A DNA stretch of 44,086 nt, from assembly GCA_021132495.1 (NCBI GenBank), contig GCA_021132495.1_4335.1. The stretch is one strand, 5' to 3'. This document shows positions 19,914 to 27,285 of the stretch, piece after piece. The DNA is from a phage. Every line of letters begins with the position of its first letter. Within the stretch, counting starts at the first letter, position 1. The notes beneath the pieces were generated by a model. The model had not been told where the DNA came from. It made no database searches and saw only the letters and a list, made by a program, of their open reading frames with translations. The translations under genes were made by a program, and so were the position numbers.

Positions 19914-20395
19914 ATTCGTGGAAACGTTGATTGTGCGGTTCCGTAGGCTTTAAGGAGACACCCCAGCCCGTCACCATAACAACCATACAAATCCGGCAGA
20001 TTGTTAACAAGGCACTGGTTCTCGAGGTCCTGGAACGGTGATTTCTCAGCGGTTGCCGTGAAAGTAATTGTCCAGTTAATCCCGTCTTCAGTGGACTCGG
20101 CGACGGTGGATGTAATGGTGACTTGATAATCCTCAATACCCATGCCGAAGTCGTGCGCCATCCAGAAACTTGACGCACCGCCGTCTACTTTTTCGAGGAA
20201 CGACAGAAACGCCTGCCGTCCCAGTGCCGATGTAACCAGAGTTACGCTTATCGGAAACACGTCGTAATACGTGTCGCGGCCCTGACGCACTCCGCCACCG
20301 GCTAAATCTACACTCCAGACGTTGTTGCGTCTGGTCATTGAGTAGCCTTTCGATACCACCGGCTTAAGGCTACGTGGGAAATATAAGTCGCTCAT
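19895..20395 (-). CDS. minor tail protein (lambda M-like position)
   Basis: Starts at the TMP stop (ATG/stop overlap); gene order. Confidence 0.4.
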   Translation of the reverse strand: MSDLYFPRSLKPVVSKGYSMTRRNNVWSVDLAGGGVRQGRDTYYDVFPISVTLVTSALGRQAFLSFLEKVDGGASSFWMAHDFGMGIEDYQVTITSTVAESTEDGINWTITFTATAEKSPFQDLENQCLVNNLPDLYGCYGDGLGCLLKAYGTAQSTFPRIWEPMQ

Positions 20396-22734
20396 TATTT
20401 AAACCCCGGCGCATTTCTTGTGGCCTTGCGGGCCTTGCTAATCTTACTGTTACTGTTCTGCAAAGAGGCAGCCACTTGCTCCTCGATGATGATACGCAAA
20501 CGGCCTTCATCATCTTGCTCAGTGGATACGTTGCCGATTTGAGAACTCGTGTTGTTTACGATAGTAACATTAGACGGTCCGGAAGAAGACCCGTTTTGCC
20601 CCATAATTTCTTTCATCTGCTGTGCGGTGCGTACACGTGACGCACCAGCGGGCATGATAACTTCTGGTTTACCGCGTTCGGCGATGGTTGAAGCCTGCCC
20701 CGCGGATAACTGTCCGCCCTGTTCACGTGCGGACCTGATAGCGGAAATCTGCGCCATACCCGCCCCAACGGCAGCAGCGGCAGCTACAGGAGCCAGGAAC
20801 GGGCCAACTACAGGGATAGCCGCTGTTGACTTATACGCCTCAATAGCCGCGGTGTACGTGGCTATAGTGGCCTGCACGATAGCGAATGCCTTGTACGCGC
20901 CAGAAGCCTCGCCCAAAGCCGAACCGATGTTTGAGGCCATGTTACCGAAGGCCGTTGCCGTTGCGTCGGCACGCTTCGTGGCGTACTGCTCGTTGATGGC
21001 ATTAAGCGCAGCCTGATACTGCTTCTCACTAATCAAACCCTGCTCGCGGTACTTATCTGCTACCGACAGTTTCTGCTGTTCCTGAATGTTGAGAAGCTCA
21101 AGCTCAGCGGCGTTCTGACCCATAATCTGAGCCATGAAGTCTTCACCTTTCTGGTTCTTTTCCTGCCGTTCTTTCTCTCGTTTAGCGAGTTCCTCCTGGC
21201 GAGCAGTGTCCGCTTCCAGCATAATCTGCGTCTTGGCGTTTTCGTACTGCTGGTCGCTAAGAAGCTGATTGCCGTAAAACTCCTGTAGCTTGGTTAACTG
21301 CTGTTCCTGGTTGGCTTCTATTTTCTGGAATACGTCATCATTGAGATGAATTGACTGATAGTAGAAATCCTCCGCGGCTTTCTTCTGGCGCTCGAACGCA
21401 TCCGCTGCTTTCTTAGCGGCTTTTGCACCCGCGCTATCATCTTCAGATCCGCCGCCGGTACCAGTTACCTTAAATTTACTAAGCCCTTCTTCCTTAGCGG
21501 CTTCTTTGTCGATGTCATACGCTGCGCGTTTAAGCGCGACGATATTTTGCTGAGCCTCCACCTGTTCGCGGAAACTTTTACGTGTCAGGTCCGCAACGTC
21601 GCGCTGAGTATCCAGTGCCATCCCCAGCTGGAAGTTAATATTTTTTGCTACGTCTACGGATTCCCCTGGTGTGAAGGCGGCCTTAACCAGCCGACCGGCA
21701 TCCTGCGCCCCTTTAACCATATCCTCAAAGAAGCGCTCCATCGCGGTAAATTCTTCCGCGATGAAATCGAGCGCATCGGCGGCTGATTCCGCTATGGTTG
21801 TCGCCGTTTGTTCGCCGCTATCCGTGATACTTTTGCTACTAAAATCCCAAAGCTCATTTAGCCCGTTTATCGCATCACCCACGAAACCAAATGCCGCGTC
21901 GAATGACATCTCTATTGCGCTTCCTACTTCCGACGCGATGTCACCCCACATACGCATCTCTGCGGCAAGTTCACCGGATGCAACCTGTGCGTTAAGTTCC
22001 TGGATTAAATCATCGATGTATCGGATAGGTTCGGCGAGCGCACCAACATCAAGACTGGTAGCCAGTGTCATTTTTAACTGCGACCATGAGTCGCTGGCAC
22101 TGGCGATGGCCCCGTTAAGTGTGTTGGCCTGGTCCGCCATAGCCCCCGCGAAGTTTACGTTACCGATGTTGAGCAGGTATTGCTCGATGTCGGCAGCGCT
22201 CTTCTTAACTACCGTAGTAGTACCCTGGAATGTAAATTCAACATCGTTTTTGTTCTGTTTGGCCTTGATACCAAATTCTTTAAGGCGCTCAAATTCAAAA
22301 GTACTAGCGTCTGCAACCGCCTCAATCATCTGATTCAGGTCTTTACCCATAGCAGCGGCGGTGTTTCCGTAGGAACGCAACGCTTCTTCTGACGGTGTAA
22401 GACCAAGCGCCACAAGTTTACGGAATCCCTCTACCGCCTGTTCAAGGCCATACGGAGTGTCGCGCGCGAAGTCTTGCAGGATGCTTAACGCCTGTCTTGC
22501 ACCCTGCGTGCTTCCGGTTAGTGTTTTCAGGCTGGCGGACATCTTGTCCAGTTGCCGTTGGGATTCTACCAGTTCCTGTGCGGCCTTGTAAGCGGTAGCG
22601 GCGACGATGGAAGCGAGGCCCGCTACCGCAGCTCCGGCTACCTTTGCAGACTTGGAAAGGTTATCAAGACGGTCTGATGTAGCTTTCGCGCCTTGCTCTG
22701 ATACTTTTACAACTAAACTAGCTACATCAGCCAT
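20395..22734 (-). CDS. tail tape measure protein
   Basis: 779 aa, Ala/Gln/Glu-rich and largely helical, directly downstream of the chaperone pair. Confidence 0.75.
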   Translation of the reverse strand: MADVASLVVKVSEQGAKATSDRLDNLSKSAKVAGAAVAGLASIVAATAYKAAQELVESQRQLDKMSASLKTLTGSTQGARQALSILQDFARDTPYGLEQAVEGFRKLVALGLTPSEEALRSYGNTAAAMGKDLNQMIEAVADASTFEFERLKEFGIKAKQNKNDVEFTFQGTTTVVKKSAADIEQYLLNIGNVNFAGAMADQANTLNGAIASASDSWSQLKMTLATSLDVGALAEPIRYIDDLIQELNAQVASGELAAEMRMWGDIASEVGSAIEMSFDAAFGFVGDAINGLNELWDFSSKSITDSGEQTATTIAESAADALDFIAEEFTAMERFFEDMVKGAQDAGRLVKAAFTPGESVDVAKNINFQLGMALDTQRDVADLTRKSFREQVEAQQNIVALKRAAYDIDKEAAKEEGLSKFKVTGTGGGSEDDSAGAKAAKKAADAFERQKKAAEDFYYQSIHLNDDVFQKIEANQEQQLTKLQEFYGNQLLSDQQYENAKTQIMLEADTARQEELAKREKERQEKNQKGEDFMAQIMGQNAAELELLNIQEQQKLSVADKYREQGLISEKQYQAALNAINEQYATKRADATATAFGNMASNIGSALGEASGAYKAFAIVQATIATYTAAIEAYKSTAAIPVVGPFLAPVAAAAAVGAGMAQISAIRSAREQGGQLSAGQASTIAERGKPEVIMPAGASRVRTAQQMKEIMGQNGSSSGPSNVTIVNNTSSQIGNVSTEQDDEGRLRIIIEEQVAASLQNSNSKISKARKATRNAPGFK

Positions 22735-23086
22735 CGTTTCTACCCTCGAAAATAGCGTCTAAGCTCATGATGATGTCAGATTCAAACATGCCTATATTCT
22801 GGCCTGAAACGGTGCTGTATGCCACTAAATCCGACCATCTTAACTGTTCGCGCGGGTACATCTTGATGCCATCGTCATCCACTCGGCGGGTAAATTTGAT
22901 TTCCCGGTACTTCTCGAAGGTGGTTAATAGTTCAGGGGGGCATTCCGGCCCGGTGTCCTGCGTTGCTTCCGGCGCATCTTGCATAACCCCCATAGCAATT
23001 AGCGCGGCTTTATGCCCGTCGGCAATACTGTCAAACTCCCGCCGTTTGTGGCGGGCTATGAAGTTCCAACGGGCAAACTGGAGCAA
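22727..23086 (-). CDS. tail assembly chaperone, frameshift-extension ORF (GT-like)
   Basis: No ATG or RBS (track start is TTG); in -1 frame relative to the upstream chaperone; GGAAAAG at the junction. Confidence 0.45.
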   Translation of the reverse strand: MLQFARWNFIARHKRREFDSIADGHKAALIAMGVMQDAPEATQDTGPECPPELLTTFEKYREIKFTRRVDDDGIKMYPREQLRWSDLVAYSTVSGQNIGMFESDIIMSLDAIFEGRNDG

Positions 23087-23091
23087 CGCGT

Positions 23092-23508
23092 CTACTTTTC
23101 CTGCAATTGGTGAAGCTGTTCGTTGTGGAAAACAACAACGTGTTCAGCGAGGCGTTTATATTGTGAAAAAAGAGTATTCAGGTTCTCTTTATTAAATTCA
23201 TCGTCGAGACTCCAACCGTTAACCAGTTCAAGTGCTAACTGGCGGTTAAGGTCCGTCGCGGCGTCTTCCATCTTAATGTTATATTCCGAGAAATCTTTCA
23301 GTTCCTCGCATTTATCACGAAGCGGCTTCAGTTTACCTAACGACGCGCGGTACGCCAGGGTAAATGCACGCATGGCTTTAACCGCAACGTCTGCCTCCGG
23401 TGAAACAACGTTCAGCCACTCCCCTGAATCGGTGCCGTCTTTCAGTGGGATCGGCATACGGGCGCCTTTTTCTGCCTCAGCTTCGTAATAAAAATCAGAA
23501 AGTTTCAT
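23092..23508 (-). CDS. tail assembly chaperone (G-like)
   Basis: 138 aa acidic protein immediately upstream of the TMP. Confidence 0.5.
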   Translation of the reverse strand: MKLSDFYYEAEAEKGARMPIPLKDGTDSGEWLNVVSPEADVAVKAMRAFTLAYRASLGKLKPLRDKCEELKDFSEYNIKMEDAATDLNRQLALELVNGWSLDDEFNKENLNTLFSQYKRLAEHVVVFHNEQLHQLQEK

Positions 23509-23615
23509 TCTTTAATCCTTTGGTTAAGAGGTTACGGGTTAAGGTTAATGCGCCAGACGGGAACCACCCGCTTTTCGTGTGCGACACTAGGCGCAAAATT
23601 ATTCTATCACATTAC

Positions 23616-23644
23616 TTGCACACCCCAATATAATAGTGTACTAT
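23616..23644 (+). promoter_or_regulatory. sigma70-like promoter TTGCAC-N17-TACTAT with palindrome AATAG-tgta-CTATT
   Basis: Near-identical to motifs at 660-688 (minus) and 33233-33261; about 40 nt upstream of the cassette. Confidence 0.5.
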
Positions 23645-23685
23645 TCACTTACACCAACGATGTTATCCCAAACAGGAGCTACACC

Positions 23686-23877
23686 ATGACGGGTATTACT
23701 ATGTTCTTCTTAATCATTATCGTTTTAGTTTATTTTATTCCATTTCTCGTGGCGCATATGCGCGACCATAAAGCGAAATTAGCGATATTCATGGCTAATC
23801 TGTTTCTTGGATGGGTTCTGCTGCCGTGGGTATTTATTTTAATCTGGGCTTGCAACTCGAATGTCAAAGAGAAGTGA
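23686..23877 (+). CDS. superinfection-immunity-like small membrane protein
   Basis: Two TM segments; motif ANLFLGWVLLPWVFILIWA recalls the Imm_superinfect signature; RBS caggag before ATG 23686. Confidence 0.65.
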   Translation: MTGITMFFLIIIVLVYFIPFLVAHMRDHKAKLAIFMANLFLGWVLLPWVFILIWACNSNVKEK

Positions 23878-23914
23878 GCTAGTATAGGACAAATCCTAAG
23901 CACGAGGAATAAAC

Positions 23915-25045
23915 ATGGCCCGGAAGAAAATAACCGACGAACAGTTGCAGGAAGAATTGAACGCCGGTATGAAGAATGTAGATATCGCCCGTAAATACGG
24001 CATCTCAGACCGCGTAATTCGTATCCGTAAAGCGAAGCTGGCTAAGAAAGGCGTGGGCCACGGGCGCGACGTTAGCCACCTTGTGCCAGACGGCTACAAG
24101 ATTAAAGGAACGTCGTCACTTGTGGACGAGTTCGGCAACACTAAGTTGCAATGGATTAAGACTGATACCGACGCCGAACGTCAGGTTGAATTGATGAAAG
24201 CCGTAATAGAGGGCATGAAGTCAGAGATTACGCCCGTTGCGCCTGTTAAAGCGGCGCGCGCCAAACGTGACGACAAGCTACTCAATCTTTACACTGTATC
24301 TGATTTCCATCTCGGTATGCTGGCATGGGCCGATGAGAGCGGCGACGACTGGGACATGAAGATTGCAGAAGACCTGTTCTCTCGGTGGTTCGACGCGGCG
24401 TTTCAGAAAGCACCGGATGCAGGAACAGGAGTTATTAACCTGCTTGGGGACTTCGCACACTTCGATAGTCTTGATGCCGTTACCCCCGAGTCGCGCCATG
24501 TATTAAATGCGGATACTCGCTATCAGAAACTGGTACGTTACATGATTCGTATGGTCCGCCGTGTTGTTGATATGGCGCTGGTTAAGCATCACACAGTAAA
24601 ACTTTTAATCGTTCAAGGTAACCACGACCCTGTTGGCTCCGTATGGCTTGCCGAAATGTTCACGGTTTTATACTCAAACGACAGCCGAGTGATTGTTGAT
24701 ACGTCGCCGGATGTTTACAAGATGGTGCAACACGGCAAAACGACGCTGTTCTTCCATCACGGGCATAAAGCACGATTCGACGCTATCGAACCGGTTATGA
24801 TTGCCAAGTTCCGTAAAGCGTTCGGCGAGAGTGTTTACAGCTACGCCCACGTAGGCCATCTGCACCACCAGAAGATTGTAGAAAGCCGTAACATGATTGT
24901 TGAGCAACACCGCACCTTAGCGGCTAAAGACGCCTACGCCTCTCGCGGCGGATGGATGTCGGGCCGCAGTGCAAATGTAATTACTTATAGCGCCGAATAT
25001 GGCGAGGTCGCACGTTTAACTATTTCACCGGAGATGCTGGGATGA
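23915..25045 (+). CDS. calcineurin-like metallophosphoesterase with N-terminal HTH domain
   Basis: Motifs DFHLG, GDFAHFD, GNHD, HHGH, GHLHH in canonical order; N-terminal VDIARKYGISDRVIRIRKAKL. Confidence 0.7.
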   Translation: MARKKITDEQLQEELNAGMKNVDIARKYGISDRVIRIRKAKLAKKGVGHGRDVSHLVPDGYKIKGTSSLVDEFGNTKLQWIKTDTDAERQVELMKAVIEGMKSEITPVAPVKAARAKRDDKLLNLYTVSDFHLGMLAWADESGDDWDMKIAEDLFSRWFDAAFQKAPDAGTGVINLLGDFAHFDSLDAVTPESRHVLNADTRYQKLVRYMIRMVRRVVDMALVKHHTVKLLIVQGNHDPVGSVWLAEMFTVLYSNDSRVIVDTSPDVYKMVQHGKTTLFFHHGHKARFDAIEPVMIAKFRKAFGESVYSYAHVGHLHHQKIVESRNMIVEQHRTLAAKDAYASRGGWMSGRSANVITYSAEYGEVARLTISPEMLG

Positions 25046-25530
25046 AAGATATTGTAATTTTCGATTTAGACGGGACATTGGCCGACGGTACCCATCGCTT
25101 ACACCTGTTACCAAAAGATAACTACGGAGAAACGTGGGCGTGGAAGCCATTTAACATGGCCTGCAAAGATGACACTCCGATATACGACAATATCCATTTG
25201 TGTAGCGTACTGTGGCATTCCGGACTTACTATAATTATCCTTACCGGGCGAAGTGATGACGCTGAGGAGGAGACTCGCGAATGGTTACGAGAGAATAACG
25301 TTAGGTTTGACACGCTAATCATGCGCAGCAAACACGACAACAGAAAAGACATCGTAATTAAAGAAGAGGTGTTGCGTGCTTTCGGACTGGAAAGAATCTT
25401 GTGTGCGTTCGACGACTCTCCAGCGGTAATAAAGCATTTCCGTGACCTCGGCATAACCGCACACGCAGTTACCGAATACGACTGTAACGGGAACTCTACA
25501 CACTTAAAACCACACGGGAGCGATAAATAA
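25042..25530 (+). CDS. HAD-superfamily phosphatase resembling the T4 Pnk 3'-phosphatase domain
   Basis: Motif I FDLDGTL, motif II ILTGRS, RKDIVIKEEV and AFDDSP; recalled similarity to the T4 polynucleotide kinase phosphatase half. Confidence 0.7.
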   Translation: MKDIVIFDLDGTLADGTHRLHLLPKDNYGETWAWKPFNMACKDDTPIYDNIHLCSVLWHSGLTIIILTGRSDDAEEETREWLRENNVRFDTLIMRSKHDNRKDIVIKEEVLRAFGLERILCAFDDSPAVIKHFRDLGITAHAVTEYDCNGNSTHLKPHGSDK

Positions 25531-26084
25531 TGGCTAAGGTAATTATTCTTAATGGCCCTGCGGGTTGCGGGAAAGACACGCTTGCTATGGCGCTGGTAGA
25601 AATGGGCTTTGCGAAAGGAACTACCAGTTTCAAGAATCCAATGTTCAATATTGCTTTGGCAGCGTTAGGCCAGGATGCTTACCACGAATTTCTCGACGGC
25701 TACGACGACCGGGCGCGGAAAGAAAAACCCGAGGGTTTTCTTAATGGGTTGTCCCGCCGCCGGTTAATGATTGCCATTTCTGAGCAATTCATTAAACCGG
25801 TATTCGGCGATGATTATTTCGGTAAGTATCTTGCTGAAAACTTGCCTGACGGCGACGAAGTTTTTGTAGTGTCCGATGGTGGATTCGCCAGTGAAGTTGC
25901 CCCTATCGTCGCCGCGGGGCATGACGTGCGAATCGTCCGCCTCCATCGTGACGGCTATACGTTCATCGGCGATAGCCGTGGCTATCTGTACGATGTTAGT
26001 GGTGTAAAAGATTACGACACCTACATCATACCGGGTGACGTTAAATCGAACGTTATAGACATTGCTTTAAAATTAGGTTTGTAA
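25530..26084 (+). CDS. P-loop nucleotide/polynucleotide kinase (T4 dNMP-kinase-like GKDT Walker A)
   Basis: N-terminal ILNGPAGCGKDT; 184 aa; coupled to the HAD gene (TAATG overlap). Confidence 0.6.
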   Translation: MAKVIILNGPAGCGKDTLAMALVEMGFAKGTTSFKNPMFNIALAALGQDAYHEFLDGYDDRARKEKPEGFLNGLSRRRLMIAISEQFIKPVFGDDYFGKYLAENLPDGDEVFVVSDGGFASEVAPIVAAGHDVRIVRLHRDGYTFIGDSRGYLYDVSGVKDYDTYIIPGDVKSNVIDIALKLGL

Positions 26085-26112: not shown

Positions 26113-27285
26113 TTATGCGTAGGTGATACGTTGAATTACGATAGACGACTGGTACTGATTGCCGGTAGCCTGGCCTTCAATGGACTGAGTGATTGACTCA
26201 GGCCCACCAATCTCAGGTGTAACCGCCGTAAGCTCTGCACGTTTCAAACTGAAAGACATAGCCCCGTTTACCCCTGCCAGAATAGAGTTAATCTCTACCT
26301 GCTGCTCGTTGATAAACTTCTGAATCATCGCCATGTCATACAGCTTACCGGAGATGGAGAAGGTGTTAGCTGCACGGCTACGCTCCACAAACGCTACGTT
26401 AGTGTTACCAAGTTCGAACTGCGCGGACGCGCTGTTATCGTTGGTGATGGTGAGAGTATCGCAACGCAACGGCGTGGAGCCATCGAACACCGACACATCT
26501 ACCGACGAGAACGGCTCATCGGTGAACGTAACCTGAGAGAAATCAGAGCCAGACGGCGGCGCGGTAAGAATCTCCTGACTCAGGCCGATGAACGGGAAGC
26601 TGCCGGTGACCATGGCGTTAACCGCCTGCTCTACGGTAAAGCCAGAGATTTCCACACCTTTGGTCAGCATGTACGCGTCCGGGTTACCACACTGGCCCTT
26701 GAACCACGTCAGGATGGAGAACGTCTTACACGCGTTACCGGTTTCCAGCTTGTCGCCAGTTTTTGCGTCAGTGGTTACTGTCTCTGCCGTTAGTGTGTGT
26801 TGAATGCCTGCACCCGTAACTACAAGAGCAGAAACCTCGGTCACGATAAACGGTTTTGCGTTGTCGCCGGTTAAGTCGGTGAACGCAATCAGGTCGCCAA
26901 CTTCTACACCGTCAGTAATGAAGCTACCGGCAGCGCGGGTGAATGTTTTACCTGCTGGGGCGACCGTAATTTCGGCGCCAGTAATCTCTACCCCAGCTTT
27001 CCACGTAGAAGTCATCGCTCCCGCAAGGAAATCATCCTGGCTACGAGAGCTAAGTTCGATGGCATACTCCCCGCTAACCTGCTTGTTACCGGTTCGGATG
27101 GATGTAGTTTCACGGCTGCCGTCCAGTTCGTTGGAAGTCAGTGCATCGCGGGTTACAGCGGGAACGCCACCCGTGTTACGCAACGGCGACCATACCGGGT
27201 TAGCCGGTGTTACGCCAGGGGTAGTTTCCGCCACATAGAATTGCGCGGTATTCGCGCCCTTAAAAGGAGTTGTAGCCATATTCAC
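26113..27285 (-). CDS. major tail protein (by position)
   Basis: 390 aa, Thr/Gly/Val-rich, last large gene before the chaperone pair. Confidence 0.5.
   Translation of the reverse strand: MNMATTPFKGANTAQFYVAETTPGVTPANPVWSPLRNTGGVPAVTRDALTSNELDGSRETTSIRTGNKQVSGEYAIELSSRSQDDFLAGAMTSTWKAGVEITGAEITVAPAGKTFTRAAGSFITDGVEVGDLIAFTDLTGDNAKPFIVTEVSALVVTGAGIQHTLTAETVTTDAKTGDKLETGNACKTFSILTWFKGQCGNPDAYMLTKGVEISGFTVEQAVNAMVTGSFPFIGLSQEILTAPPSGSDFSQVTFTDEPFSSVDVSVFDGSTPLRCDTLTITNDNSASAQFELGNTNVAFVERSRAANTFSISGKLYDMAMIQKFINEQQVEINSILAGVNGAMSFSLKRAELTAVTPEIGGPESITQSIEGQATGNQYQSSIVIQRITYA

What the first reader, a model, noticed from the sequence alone, without database searches (positions are those of the whole stretch)
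23086..23101. Probable programmed -1 frameshift joining the two tail chaperone ORFs
The upstream chaperone ORF ends ...CAG GAA AAG TAG. The downstream ORF (22727..23086) is in the -1 frame, has no ATG and no RBS, and its frame stays open back through the upstream stop. The shifty AAG lysine codon lies in GGAAAAG (23095-23101, minus strand) directly before the stop. This matches the conserved G/GT-type frameshift of tailed-phage tail assembly chaperones, although the heptamer is not the canonical X-XXY-YYZ form.
Basis: partly seen in the sequence, partly recalled or inferred. Interest (0 to 1): 0.45.

Follow-up and report, generated by a model that had tools for sequence, protein, structure and literature searches.

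The report
Tail chaperone frameshift with long-range RNA helix
The two tail-chaperone reading frames of this E. coli phage (genus Kagunavirus) are almost certainly joined by a programmed backward ribosome slip on the four bases A-AAG just before the stop codon. An RNA helix that pairs across more than 100 bases and had not been noticed before probably helps the slip.

Summary
The window is a Kagunavirus phage. On the minus strand, a 138-codon tail assembly chaperone gene (23508..23092) ends ...CAG GAA AAG TAG. The -1 frame stays open from 49 nt before the stop for 121 codons, and ends on the tape-measure start (ATGGCTGA).

In 80 distinct relatives (down to about 41% identity) the gene always ends NNA_AAG + TAR. 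The penultimate amino acid varies (E/A/V/K/G), but its codon always ends in A. The -1 frame can open as late as 7 nt before the stop. A start codon at +8 (TTG) exists only in the closest group; elsewhere it is CTG. This maps a -1 shift to the tetramer A_AAG. RefSeq already holds the identical K138|V139 fusion for phages fFiEco03 and fPoEco01, so the frameshift itself is not new. One genome announcement denied it for lack of a canonical heptamer.

What appears to be new is a helix. Synonymous sites just after the stop are frozen (GCG YTG), and this segment starts 5 nt after A_AAG. It pairs with a distal partner at about +127 (window 23089-23080 with 22970-22960), or at about +197 in other lineages. 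Compensatory changes, G·U tolerance and 14/14 out-of-sample sequences support it. It is probably the frameshift stimulator. Nothing has been tested experimentally.

The parts
23092..23508 (-). Tail assembly chaperone 'G' ORF, frame 0. It encodes 138 aa (15.9 kDa) and includes the TAG stop at 23094..23092.
   Evidence: Pfam PF08748 Phage_TAC_4. phrog_15027 profile positions 1-138.
23095..23101 (-). Shift site G_GAA_AAG. The conserved core is the tetramer A_AAG at 23098..23095. tRNA-Lys re-pairs from AAG to AAA.
   Evidence: N_NNA_AAG is present in 80/80 distinct relatives. The terminal Lys codon is AAG 80/80, against AAA:AAG = 876:529 elsewhere in these genes. The penultimate codon is always NNA although its amino acid varies. 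The -1 frame opens only 7 nt before the stop in L093/L095.
23092..23094 (-). Frame-0 stop TAG, directly abutting the shift codon. The next base is A.
   Evidence: The stop is TAG in 55 and TAA in 25 of 80 sequences, and never TGA. The following base is always A or C.
22727..23095 (-). 'T' segment read in the -1 frame: 122 codons from GTA (23095..23093) to GGC, then TGA at 22729..22727. The predicted GT fusion is 260 aa (29.8 kDa) with the junction ...LQEK|VDALLQFARW...
   Evidence: Pfam PF23812 Phage_TAC_18. phrog_15027 profile positions 138-259. Alignment of the fusions. Identical junction in QNO11663.1 / YP_010748927.1. Masses.
23080..23089 (-). 5' arm of the long-range helix (GCGUUGCUCC). 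It starts 5 nt after the AAG codon and contains the TTG at 23086..23084.
   Evidence: Synonymous sites are frozen here: GCG 76/76 and YTG 76/76. The helix is in the MFE and centroid folds.
22960..22970 (-). 3' arm of the long-range helix (GG-A-AGCAACGC). It lies about 125-134 nt after the stop, inside the T coding sequence (the variable linker ...EATQ...).
   Evidence: There is perfect U-A/C-G covariation at one pair (11 vs 12 sequences).
23013..23075 (-). Predicted stable hairpin enclosed by the long-range helix. It is seen only in the window and its close relatives.
   Evidence: It is not conserved across the family, so its role is unproven.
20395..22734 (-). Tape measure protein gene (779 aa). 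Its ATG overlaps the T stop (ATGGCTGA, 22734..22727).
   Evidence: phrog_1538 E = 5e-204. The overlap is ATGGCTGA in 74/80 relatives.
26113..27285 (-). Tail tube gene. It is the usual upstream neighbour of G/GT genes, but here it is separated from G by a 2.6-kb block on the opposite strand.
   Evidence: PF18906 Phage_tube_2 E = 3e-37.

Best explanation
This is the tail assembly chaperone pair of a Kagunavirus siphophage. It is expressed like lambda gpG/gpGT.

**What is made.** Most ribosomes translate the 138-codon G ORF and terminate at TAG (23094..23092). A minority slip back one base while tRNA-Lys decodes the last codon: AAG (23097..23095) re-pairs to AAA (23098..23096). These ribosomes then read GUA GAC GCG UUG... 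in the -1 frame. The product is a 260-aa G-T fusion that ends at the tape-measure start.

**The slippery unit.** It is the tetranucleotide A_AAG. E. coli's single tRNA-Lys reads AAG poorly and AAA well. Re-pairing of the P-site codon (GAA to GGA) is possible here but is not conserved in relatives.

**The likely stimulator.** An RNA helix starts 5 nt after the shift codon. Its 5' arm is 23089..23080 and its 3' arm is 22970..22960, about 115 nt downstream. Other lineages use a partner about 190 nt downstream. The abutting stop codon, in a weak-termination context (A or C after it), may add a pause.

**Shown versus inferred.** Shown by sequence comparison: the frame change at this exact site, the conserved A_AAG-stop arrangement, and the covarying helix. 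Inferred: that the helix stimulates the shift; an efficiency of roughly 1-6%; and the G/GT role in building the tail tube around the tape measure.
For: **Anatomy**
- The ORFs, frames and stop are as described.

**Family matches**
- Pfam and PHROG tail-chaperone families match both halves. One 259-position PHROG profile spans both.

**Census of 80 distinct G+T sequences**
- Every one ends N_NNA_AAG + TAR.
- Two heptamers are canonical at the same position: G_GGA_AAG (L064) and A_AAA_AAG (L101/102).
- The -1 frame opens as little as 7 nt upstream of the stop.
- The first ATG/GTG/TTG in the -1 ORF is at +8 only in the closest clade, and at +11 to +323 elsewhere. The +8 codon is CTG in 60/80, and 45 of those have no SD-like motif.

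**Coding signal**
- -1 frame amino-acid conservation starts at the junction.
- The variability phase flips at the stop.
- tblastn with T covers residues 1-122 in 491 phage records.

**Prior annotation**
- The predicted fusion for a relative with 96.7% DNA identity in this region equals RefSeq YP_010748927.1 exactly.

**Helix**
- Synonymous sites are frozen at GCG YTG.
- RNAduplex finds partners in nearly every sequence.
- Class A alignment: 86% of cells paired, against 21-56% with slid partners, and 0/500 shuffles reach this. One pair is CG:12 / UA:11 with no mismatch.
- Class B alignment: 87% of cells paired, against 4-49% slid, with compensatory changes at 3 pairs.
- In an exhaustive scan of all 7-bp helices, it is the only one in class B with at least 95% of cells paired, and one of two in class A.
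- Pair probability is about 1 in 49/50 local folds, and at least 0.74 in 22/26 folds of 540 nt.
- 14/14 new sequences found by a DNA motif scan have the predicted partner.
- The helix cores contain G·U pairs (17) but no A·C. This points to RNA of the sense strand.

**Literature**
- A_AAG is the best -1 tetramer in E. coli. It gave 5.6% with a pseudoknot after a 5-nt spacer, and about background without a stimulator (PMC4066793).
- E. coli has a single tRNA-Lys. Natural uses of CGA_AAG include B. subtilis cdd and IS1222 (PMC5009743).
- The phage encodes no tRNA.
Against: - There is no experimental evidence in this phage group: no fusion protein, reporter assay or RNA probing.
- The window heptamer G_GAA_AAG is not X_XXY_YYZ. 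One published genome announcement for a close relative states there is 'no canonical slippery sequence' (PMC6776780).
- In the window's own clade a TTG with an AGGA 12 nt upstream could start an independent T protein.
- RNAalifold on mixed lineages found no consensus structure. That is explained by partner switching, but it means the helix was found after the fact, by searching for complements.
- Within each class the compensatory events are few (roughly 2-5 independent events), and the sequences are related.
- A closing helix around a 115-190 nt loop is unusual for a bacterial -1 frameshift stimulator.
Confidence: 0.88

Rival explanations
1. Same -1 fusion, but a different slip step (a 'shifty stop'). 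tRNA-Lys slips from AAG to AAA while it sits in the P site and the slowly decoded UAG/UAA occupies the A site. Val-tRNA reading GUA in the -1 frame competes with release factor. In this version the stop codon, not the helix, is the main stimulator.
For: - The stop abuts the shift codon in 80/80 sequences. In other phages the mean distance from slip site to stop is 26-36 nt (PMC10885494).
- The stop is never TGA. The next base is always A or C; a C after the prfB UGA disfavours termination (PMC5009743), and that A is similarly weak is my own recollection.
- The P-site codon of the heptamer is not conserved (GAA/GCA/GTA/GGA/AAA/TCA).
Against: - The review states that a slow A-site codon matters more for +1 than for -1 shifts (PMC5009743).
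- The helix begins 5 nt after AAG. That is the classical spacing when AAG is in the A site. With AAG in the P site, the first base pairs would already be inside the ribosome.
- The A/C after the stop and the GUA codon could equally be protein-level constraints on the -1 frame.
Confidence: 0.25
2. T is a separate protein. It would be started at the UUG/CUG 8 nt after the G stop by ribosomes that terminate and re-initiate. The long-range helix hides that start until G translation opens it (translational coupling), and no fusion is made.
For: - A TTG at 23086 with an AGGA 12 nt upstream. Several GenBank records annotate a 119-aa ORF, some even with a CTG start.
- The third base of the YTG codon is invariant, and the codon lies inside the helix 5' arm.
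Against: - The +8 codon is CTG in 60/80 sequences, and 45 of those have no SD-like motif.
- This model does not explain the invariant A_AAG, the NNA penultimate codon with a varying amino acid, or the AAG 80/80 bias.
- It does not explain the canonical heptamers at the same position in L064 and L101/102.
- In the lambda paradigm, T works only when fused to G (PMC5009743).
Confidence: 0.06
3. The frame change happens during transcription: RNA polymerase slips on the A run and adds or drops a base in a fraction of mRNAs.
For: An A4 run lies at the site (23099..23096).
Against: The run is only 3-4 A in most relatives (GCAAAG, GTAAAG). From my own knowledge, productive slippage needs about 7 or more. 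The conserved G after the A run and the abutting stop are not predicted by this model.
Confidence: 0.01

Closest known systems
Lambda gpG/gpGT and the conserved tail assembly chaperone -1 frameshift of long-tailed phages (Levin 1993; Xu 2004, 2013, 2014, as summarised in PMC5009743)
   Same: - Two overlapping ORFs lie directly upstream of the tape-measure gene, and the second is in the -1 frame.
- The fusion shares its N-terminal domain with the abundant short product.
- Both halves match tail-chaperone protein families.
   Different: - The slip site is a tetramer A_AAG in G_GAA_AAG, not G_GGA_AAG.
- It abuts the stop, at 0 nt distance. Other phages average 26-36 nt.
- A covarying long-range helix starts 5 nt downstream.
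- The tail tube gene is separated from G by a 2.6-kb divergent gene block.
Z_ZZN tetranucleotide -1 sites using A_AAG: IS3-family elements such as IS1222 (G_CGA_AAG), and B. subtilis cdd (A_CGA_AAG)
   Same: - A single-tRNA re-pairing AAG to AAA by tRNA-Lys, with no cognate re-pairing of the P-site codon.
- Dependence on an added stimulator. The 5-nt spacer matches the IS3 pseudoknot construct that gave 5.6% (PMC4066793).
   Different: - The gene context is a phage tail chaperone, not a transposase.
- The stimulator is a long-range closing helix with a 115-190 nt loop, not a compact hairpin, pseudoknot or upstream SD.
Long-distance RNA pairing required for -1 frameshifting in plant RNA viruses (luteo-, diantho- and umbraviruses; PMC4737148, PMC10602861, PMC5893793)
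   Same: The element next to the slip site needs a distal complementary sequence. Covariation supports the pairing.
   Different: - The distances here are 115-190 nt, not kilobases.
- The distal partner pairs directly with the segment 5 nt after the slip site, rather than with a bulge or loop of a local hairpin.
- The setting is a dsDNA phage mRNA in bacteria.
- The partner has switched position between lineages.

Membership tests
Tail assembly chaperone G/GT programmed -1 frameshift | Two overlapping ORFs between the major tail (tube) gene and the tape-measure gene | tested here: met
   G (23508..23092) and T (..22727) lie directly upstream of, and overlap, the tape-measure gene (22734..20395). 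The tube gene (27285..26113) is the next minus-strand gene upstream, but a 2.6-kb plus-strand block intervenes.
Tail assembly chaperone G/GT programmed -1 frameshift | The second ORF is in the -1 frame, overlaps the end of the first, and lacks conserved initiation signals of its own | tested here: met
   The -1 frame is open 49 nt upstream of the stop in the window and 7-205 nt in relatives. The +8 codon is TTG in only 20/80 sequences and CTG in 60/80. In the other lineages the first ATG/GTG/TTG lies at +11 to +323.
Tail assembly chaperone G/GT programmed -1 frameshift | Canonical X_XXY_YYZ slippery heptamer in the overlap | tested here: not met
   The window has G_GAA_AAG. Only 3 of 80 relatives have a canonical heptamer (G_GGA_AAG, A_AAA_AAG). 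The accepted minimal alternative, a Z_ZZN tetramer, is met (A_AAG, 80/80).
Tail assembly chaperone G/GT programmed -1 frameshift | Both halves are homologous to known tail chaperone proteins | tested here: met
   PF08748 (E = 3e-8) for G and PF23812 (E = 1e-18) for T. phrog_15027 spans both halves. No solved structure is found by sequence.
Tail assembly chaperone G/GT programmed -1 frameshift | Two products, G and GT, made at a fixed ratio; both needed for tail assembly and absent from virions | not testable with these tools
   This needs proteomics or genetics. No such data were found for Guernseyvirinae.
A_AAG tetranucleotide -1 frameshift sites | A_AAG in frame, so that tRNA-Lys can re-pair cognately to AAA, in a host with a single tRNA-Lys(UUU) | tested here: met
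   A_AAG is in 80/80 sequences. The hosts are E. coli and Salmonella. E. coli has a single tRNA-Lys according to PMC5009743. The phage has no tRNA gene.
A_AAG tetranucleotide -1 frameshift sites | A stimulatory element, either a 3' structure after a 5-9 nt spacer or an upstream SD | tested here: inconclusive
   A covarying helix starts 5 nt after AAG. Its stimulatory effect is not tested. The AGGA upstream is too close to the slip site and is not conserved.
Long-distance-interaction-dependent -1 PRF (plant RNA viruses) | A kilobase-scale interaction between a local stem-loop next to the slip site and a distal element in an RNA virus genome | tested here: not met
   The loop here is 115-190 nt, the pairing is a direct closing helix, and the mRNA comes from a dsDNA phage. 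This is a functional analogy only.
Rfam frameshift elements | A match to a curated covariance model | tested here: not met
   Only a chance snoRNA hit, E = 1.3.

The most novel reading that the evidence does not exclude
The Guernseyvirinae-type tail chaperone frameshift may use a signal architecture not described for phage G/GT genes. It combines a bare A_AAG tetramer abutting the stop codon with a required long-range RNA closing helix. The helix's 5' arm is fixed 5 nt after the slip site. Its 3' partner has moved during evolution between a linker site (about +127) and a KF-I-Q-R coding site (about +197), and one lineage (L093 group) carries both. If so, this would be the first long-range frameshift stimulator in a dsDNA phage. 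It would also be a natural case of partner switching that keeps a recoding signal intact.
Probability: 0.55. Interest if true: 0.62.

Novelty: new variant of a known kind. Interest (0 to 1): 0.5.

Why it matters
**Annotation.** Hundreds of Kagunavirus and Jerseyvirus genomes, many of them candidates for phage therapy or biocontrol, annotate this locus inconsistently. Versions seen include two genes, a CTG-start gene, no gene at all, and a joined CDS. One paper denies a frameshift for lack of a canonical heptamer. The comparative evidence fixes the junction (K138|V139) and gives a simple rule for annotation: A_AAG-TAR-NN-GCGYTG.

**Mechanism.** The locus offers a compact natural system for asking how a weak tetramer site reaches useful efficiency. 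It combines an abutting stop, a 5-nt spacer, and a long-range helix that can form because the region downstream of the stop is rarely translated. It also shows how such a signal can survive replacement of one helix arm.

**Prediction tools.** Frameshift predictors that scan only 50-100 nt downstream, or that require heptamers, would miss this class.

Tried and rejected
- **RNAalifold on mixed-lineage alignments** (12 and 46 sequences) gave no consensus structure. The cause is that the 3' partner differs between lineages. The helix emerged only from per-sequence duplex searches and class-specific alignments.
- **The stable local hairpin 23075..23013** (z = -3) lies 19 nt from the slip site and is not conserved beyond close relatives. 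I rejected it as the general stimulator.
- **The upstream AGGA as an SD-type stimulator** is too close to the slip site and is absent in the CGCAAAG/AGCAAAG lineages.
- **Rfam** gave no match. A search of solved structures by sequence gave nothing significant.
- **Literature.** The PubMed id 25663216 cited in a GenBank note is not held in the library, so what it says about a frameshift could not be read. Searches for SETP3 or fFiEco papers describing the frameshift found nothing.
- **Distant relatives** (Vibrio phage BA3, Pseudomonas phage Lebethron, 26-29% identity) also have a -1 ORF running to the tape-measure start. They use other, unresolved sites, so the A_AAG-stop design is specific to this clade.
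The fully specified version returns about half chance hits.

Full report
**1. What is in the sequence**

Everything below is read on the minus strand.

- A 138-codon ORF (23508..23092) ends CAG GAA AAG TAG.
- The -1 frame is open from 49 nt before that stop for 121 codons. It ends in TGA at 22729..22727.
- That TGA overlaps the ATG of a 779-aa tape measure gene (ATGGCTGA, 22734..22727).
- The chance of 121 stop-free codons is about 0.003.

- The -1 ORF does have a TTG (23086..23084), and an AGGA lies 12 nt upstream of it.
- The informative unit is the tetramer A_AAG rather than the heptamer.

**2. Identity of the region**

- The region is 99.6% identical to Escherichia phage vB_EcoS_HSE2. It matches 253 Kagunavirus, Jerseyvirus and related records (Guernseyvirinae).
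- The upstream ORF matches Pfam Phage_TAC_4. The -1 ORF matches Phage_TAC_18.
- The next gene is a tape measure protein. A tail tube gene lies at 27285..26113.
- One PHROG profile of 259 positions (phrog_15027, 'tail assembly chaperone') matches the first ORF at positions 1-138 and the -1 ORF at 138-259. Fused proteins of exactly this design are therefore already in the databases.

**3. State of annotation**

GenBank records disagree on this locus.

- fFiEco03, fPoEco01 and Serratia phage Smarc3 carry a joined 'frameshift product' CDS.
- XY1, Shashou, Bas70 and AG11 annotate a separate second gene. Two of these use a CTG start.
- PSDA-2 annotates nothing there.

My predicted fusion for fFiEco03, with junction ...LQEK|VDALLQ..., is residue-for-residue QNO11663.1 / YP_010748927.1. 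The frameshift at this junction is therefore already proposed in RefSeq. I found no paper that describes or tests it.

**4. Comparative test of the frameshift**

I collected 27 and then 80 loci from IMG/VR, plus five GenBank loci. In the 80 distinct G+T nucleotide sequences, which go down to about 41% protein identity:

- **The ending is constant.** G is 138 codons (134 in one sequence) and always ends N_NNA_AAG followed directly by TAG (55) or TAA (25). It never ends in TGA.
- **The heptamers vary.** They are GGAAAAG (58), CGCAAAG (8), AGCAAAG (6), GGTAAAG (4), GGCAAAG (1), and the two canonical forms GGGAAAG (1) and AAAAAAG (2).
- **Selection is on the nucleotides.** The penultimate amino acid varies (E/A/V/K/G), yet its codon always ends in A. 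The last Lys is AAG 80/80, while Lys codons elsewhere in these genes are AAA 876 : AAG 529. This is selection on the nucleotides A_AAG, not on the protein.
- **The shift window is narrow.** The -1 frame opens between 7 and 205 nt upstream of the stop. In L093/L095 a -1 TAA sits immediately before CGCAAAG. The shift must therefore occur within GCA_AAG.
- **Independent initiation is not conserved.** The +8 codon is TTG only in the window's clade (20/80). It is CTG elsewhere (60/80), and 45 of those have no SD-like motif. Outside the window's clade the first ATG/GTG/TTG in the -1 ORF lies between +11 and +323.
- **The -1 frame is coding from the junction.** -1 frame amino-acid conservation starts at the junction (KVxALxxFAxW ... 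FDSIA..H.AAL.AMGV), upstream of those later starts.
- **The coding phase flips at the stop.** Nucleotide variability peaks at the third position of frame 0 before the stop, and at the third position of frame -1 after it.
- **Homology reaches the first residue.** tblastn with the T part covers residues 1-122 in 491 phage records.

Together these results map a -1 shift to A_AAG.

**5. Fit with known mechanism**

- A_AAG is the most shift-prone Z_ZZN tetramer in E. coli. It gave 5.6% with the IS3 pseudoknot placed after a 5-nt spacer. Without a stimulator it was barely above background (PMC4066793).
- E. coli has one tRNA-Lys for both codons. A_AAG sites are used naturally in IS1222 and occur in B. 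subtilis cdd (PMC5009743).
- The phage carries no tRNA gene.
- A stimulator is therefore expected.

**6. The stimulator candidate**

*Frozen synonymous sites.* In 76 distinct fusion-coding sequences, every other invariant Ala/Leu/Gly/Pro/Val/Ser/Arg column has a codon entropy of 1.2-2.4 bits. Just after the stop the picture is different:

| Codon | Usage | Note |
|---|---|---|
| Val139 | GTA 76/76 | forced by the overlap with AAG and TAR |
| Ala141 | GCG 76/76 | frame 0 is not coding here |
| Leu142 | YTG 76/76 | frame 0 is not coding here |

*Why the first structure searches failed.* RNAalifold on mixed lineages found nothing. A per-sequence duplex search of the segment +2..+13 against the next 345 nt found an 8-10 bp complement in nearly every sequence, but at one of two places.

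*Class A.* This class includes the window and all but one of the lineages whose T has 121 codons (in L093's group the best partner lies nearby, at about +118). The pairing is GCGYUGY with RCARCGC at about +127, in a variable linker.

*Class B.* These are the lineages with a 120-codon T. The pairing is GCGCUGUAUGAA with UUCAUACAGCGC at about +197, and this 3' arm encodes KF-I-Q-R. Class A sequences have no complementarity at the class B site (ACCCGCCGA, encoding KFTRR). The L093 group has both partners.

*Pair counts.*

| Measure | Class A (23 sequences) | Class B (27 sequences) |
|---|---|---|
| Cells paired | 86% | 87% |
| Cells paired with partners slid 1-3 columns | 21-56% | 4-49% |
| Shuffles reaching the observed % paired | 0/500 | 3/500 |
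| Covariation | one pair CG:12 / UA:11, no mismatch; another UG:10, CG:6, UA:6 | compensatory changes at three pairs (L077, L101/102, L105) |

*Further checks.*

- An exhaustive scan of all 7-bp helices finds this helix as the only one with at least 95% of cells paired in class B. In class A it is one of two.
- ViennaRNA predicts it with pair probability near 1 in 49/50 local folds. In 540-nt contexts the probability is at least 0.74 in 22/26.
- The window's MFE and centroid structures contain it. There, 23089..23082 pairs with 22967..22960, and 23081-23080 pairs with 22969-22970.
- The helix cores hold 17 G·U pairs and no A·C pairs. This indicates RNA of the sense strand rather than a DNA feature.

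*Out-of-sample test.* A DNA motif scan of IMG/VR (AAAGTAGNNGCGCTGTA) gave 14 junction sequences not used before. In 13 the best duplex partner lies at the predicted site: 11-13 bp at about +197 or 9-11 bp at about +125, with further TAC/GTA compensations. In the fourteenth (L151) a 7-bp partner is present at the class A site, although the duplex search ranked another site higher.

**7. Interpretation**

- The helix begins 5 nt after the shift codon. This is the classical spacing for a -1 stimulator when AAG is in the A site.
- It can persist because the region after the G stop is translated only by the few shifted ribosomes.
- I therefore think it is the frameshift stimulator (about 0.55-0.6). 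The abutting stop may contribute a pause: it is always TAR and is always followed by A or C.
- The strict abutment is unusual. The mean distance from slip site to stop is 26 nt in SEA-PHAGES genomes and 36 nt in the Xu et al. set (PMC10885494).
- A pure 'shifty stop' P-site slip is a live sub-rival. Against it, the review notes that slow A-site codons matter more for +1 than for -1 shifts.
- Independent initiation of T at YUG, with the helix acting as a coupling gate, explains the helix. It does not explain the A_AAG signature, and I rate it at about 0.06.
- Transcriptional slippage is implausible on an A3-A4 run.

**8. Limits**

- Everything here is computational.
- The compensatory events are few, and the sequences are phylogenetically related.
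- The helix was found by searching for complements and then tested on new sequences.
- Frameshift efficiency is unknown.
- The paper cited in a GenBank note (PMID 25663216) could not be read.

**9. Verdict**

- The frameshift itself is a known kind and is already annotated in some close relatives.
- The signal appears to be an undescribed variant: a tetramer abutting the stop, plus a long-range covarying helix whose partner has switched between lineages. It is worth a reporter experiment.

Noticed in passing
window 23548-26084 (+ strand): A 2.6-kb block on the opposite strand sits between the tail tube gene and the chaperone gene. It encodes an Imm_superinfect protein (23548-23877), a weak calcineurin-like metallophosphoesterase (23915-25045), a HAD/PNKP-type phosphatase (25042-25530) and a 184-aa protein with no Pfam hit (25530-26084). 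The G/GT/tape-measure genes must therefore start a transcription unit of their own in 23509-23914. The simple promoter scan found no minus-strand sigma-70 site there.
   Followed up: partly
L064:1408-1414; L101 and L102:1408-1414: Three relatives carry canonical heptamers at exactly the same position: G_GGA_AAG (the lambda type) and A_AAA_AAG (the dnaX type). These are natural 'upgrades' of the tetramer site. They would make good comparison constructs.
   Followed up: partly
all 80 relatives, positions +0..+3 after AAG (window 23094-23091): The stop is TAG or TAA and never TGA, although TGA would still give Val (GTG) in the -1 frame. The base after the stop is always A or C. This is possibly a weak-termination context. 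It could also be only a constraint on the -1 frame amino acid (D/N/E/K/A).
   Followed up: no
L093, L095, L096, L098, L099, L103 (about +118 and +199 after the stop): This lineage has both a class A-like partner (CGCGCAGCGCG at about +118) and the class B partner (ATACAGCGC at about +199) for the same 5' arm. It is a possible intermediate in the partner switch.
   Followed up: partly
L034 (NC_041991 AG11) 710-1066; L031 (PQ850619 Bas70) 710-1066: The deposited annotations start the second chaperone ORF on a CTG codon. PSDA-2 (L033) leaves the 360-nt stretch unannotated. These are likely artefacts of gene callers facing an ORF with no start.
   Followed up: yes
L024 / L056 (IMGVR_UViG_638275545_000001): In this contig the G ORF is broken by a TGA after 37 codons, although it is 84% identical at the protein level. 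This is probably a sequencing indel or a pseudogene. I excluded it from the census.
   Followed up: no
L116 (Vibrio phage BA3) 1266-1595; L117 (Pseudomonas phage Lebethron) 1236-1580: These distant relatives of G (26-29% identity) also have an unannotated or partly annotated -1 ORF of 109-114 codons that ends on the tape-measure start. BA3 has two A_AAG sites (gtA_AAG, caA_AAG) right where the -1 frame opens, 27-33 nt before the stop. Lebethron has no obvious site.
   Followed up: partly
alignment A4 columns 38-44 with 107-113 (window about 23063-23057 with 22994-22988): This is a second 7-bp helix inside the class A domain. It reaches 95% paired cells and has two pairs with changes on both sides. 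It was not examined further and could be chance within conserved coding sequence.
   Followed up: no
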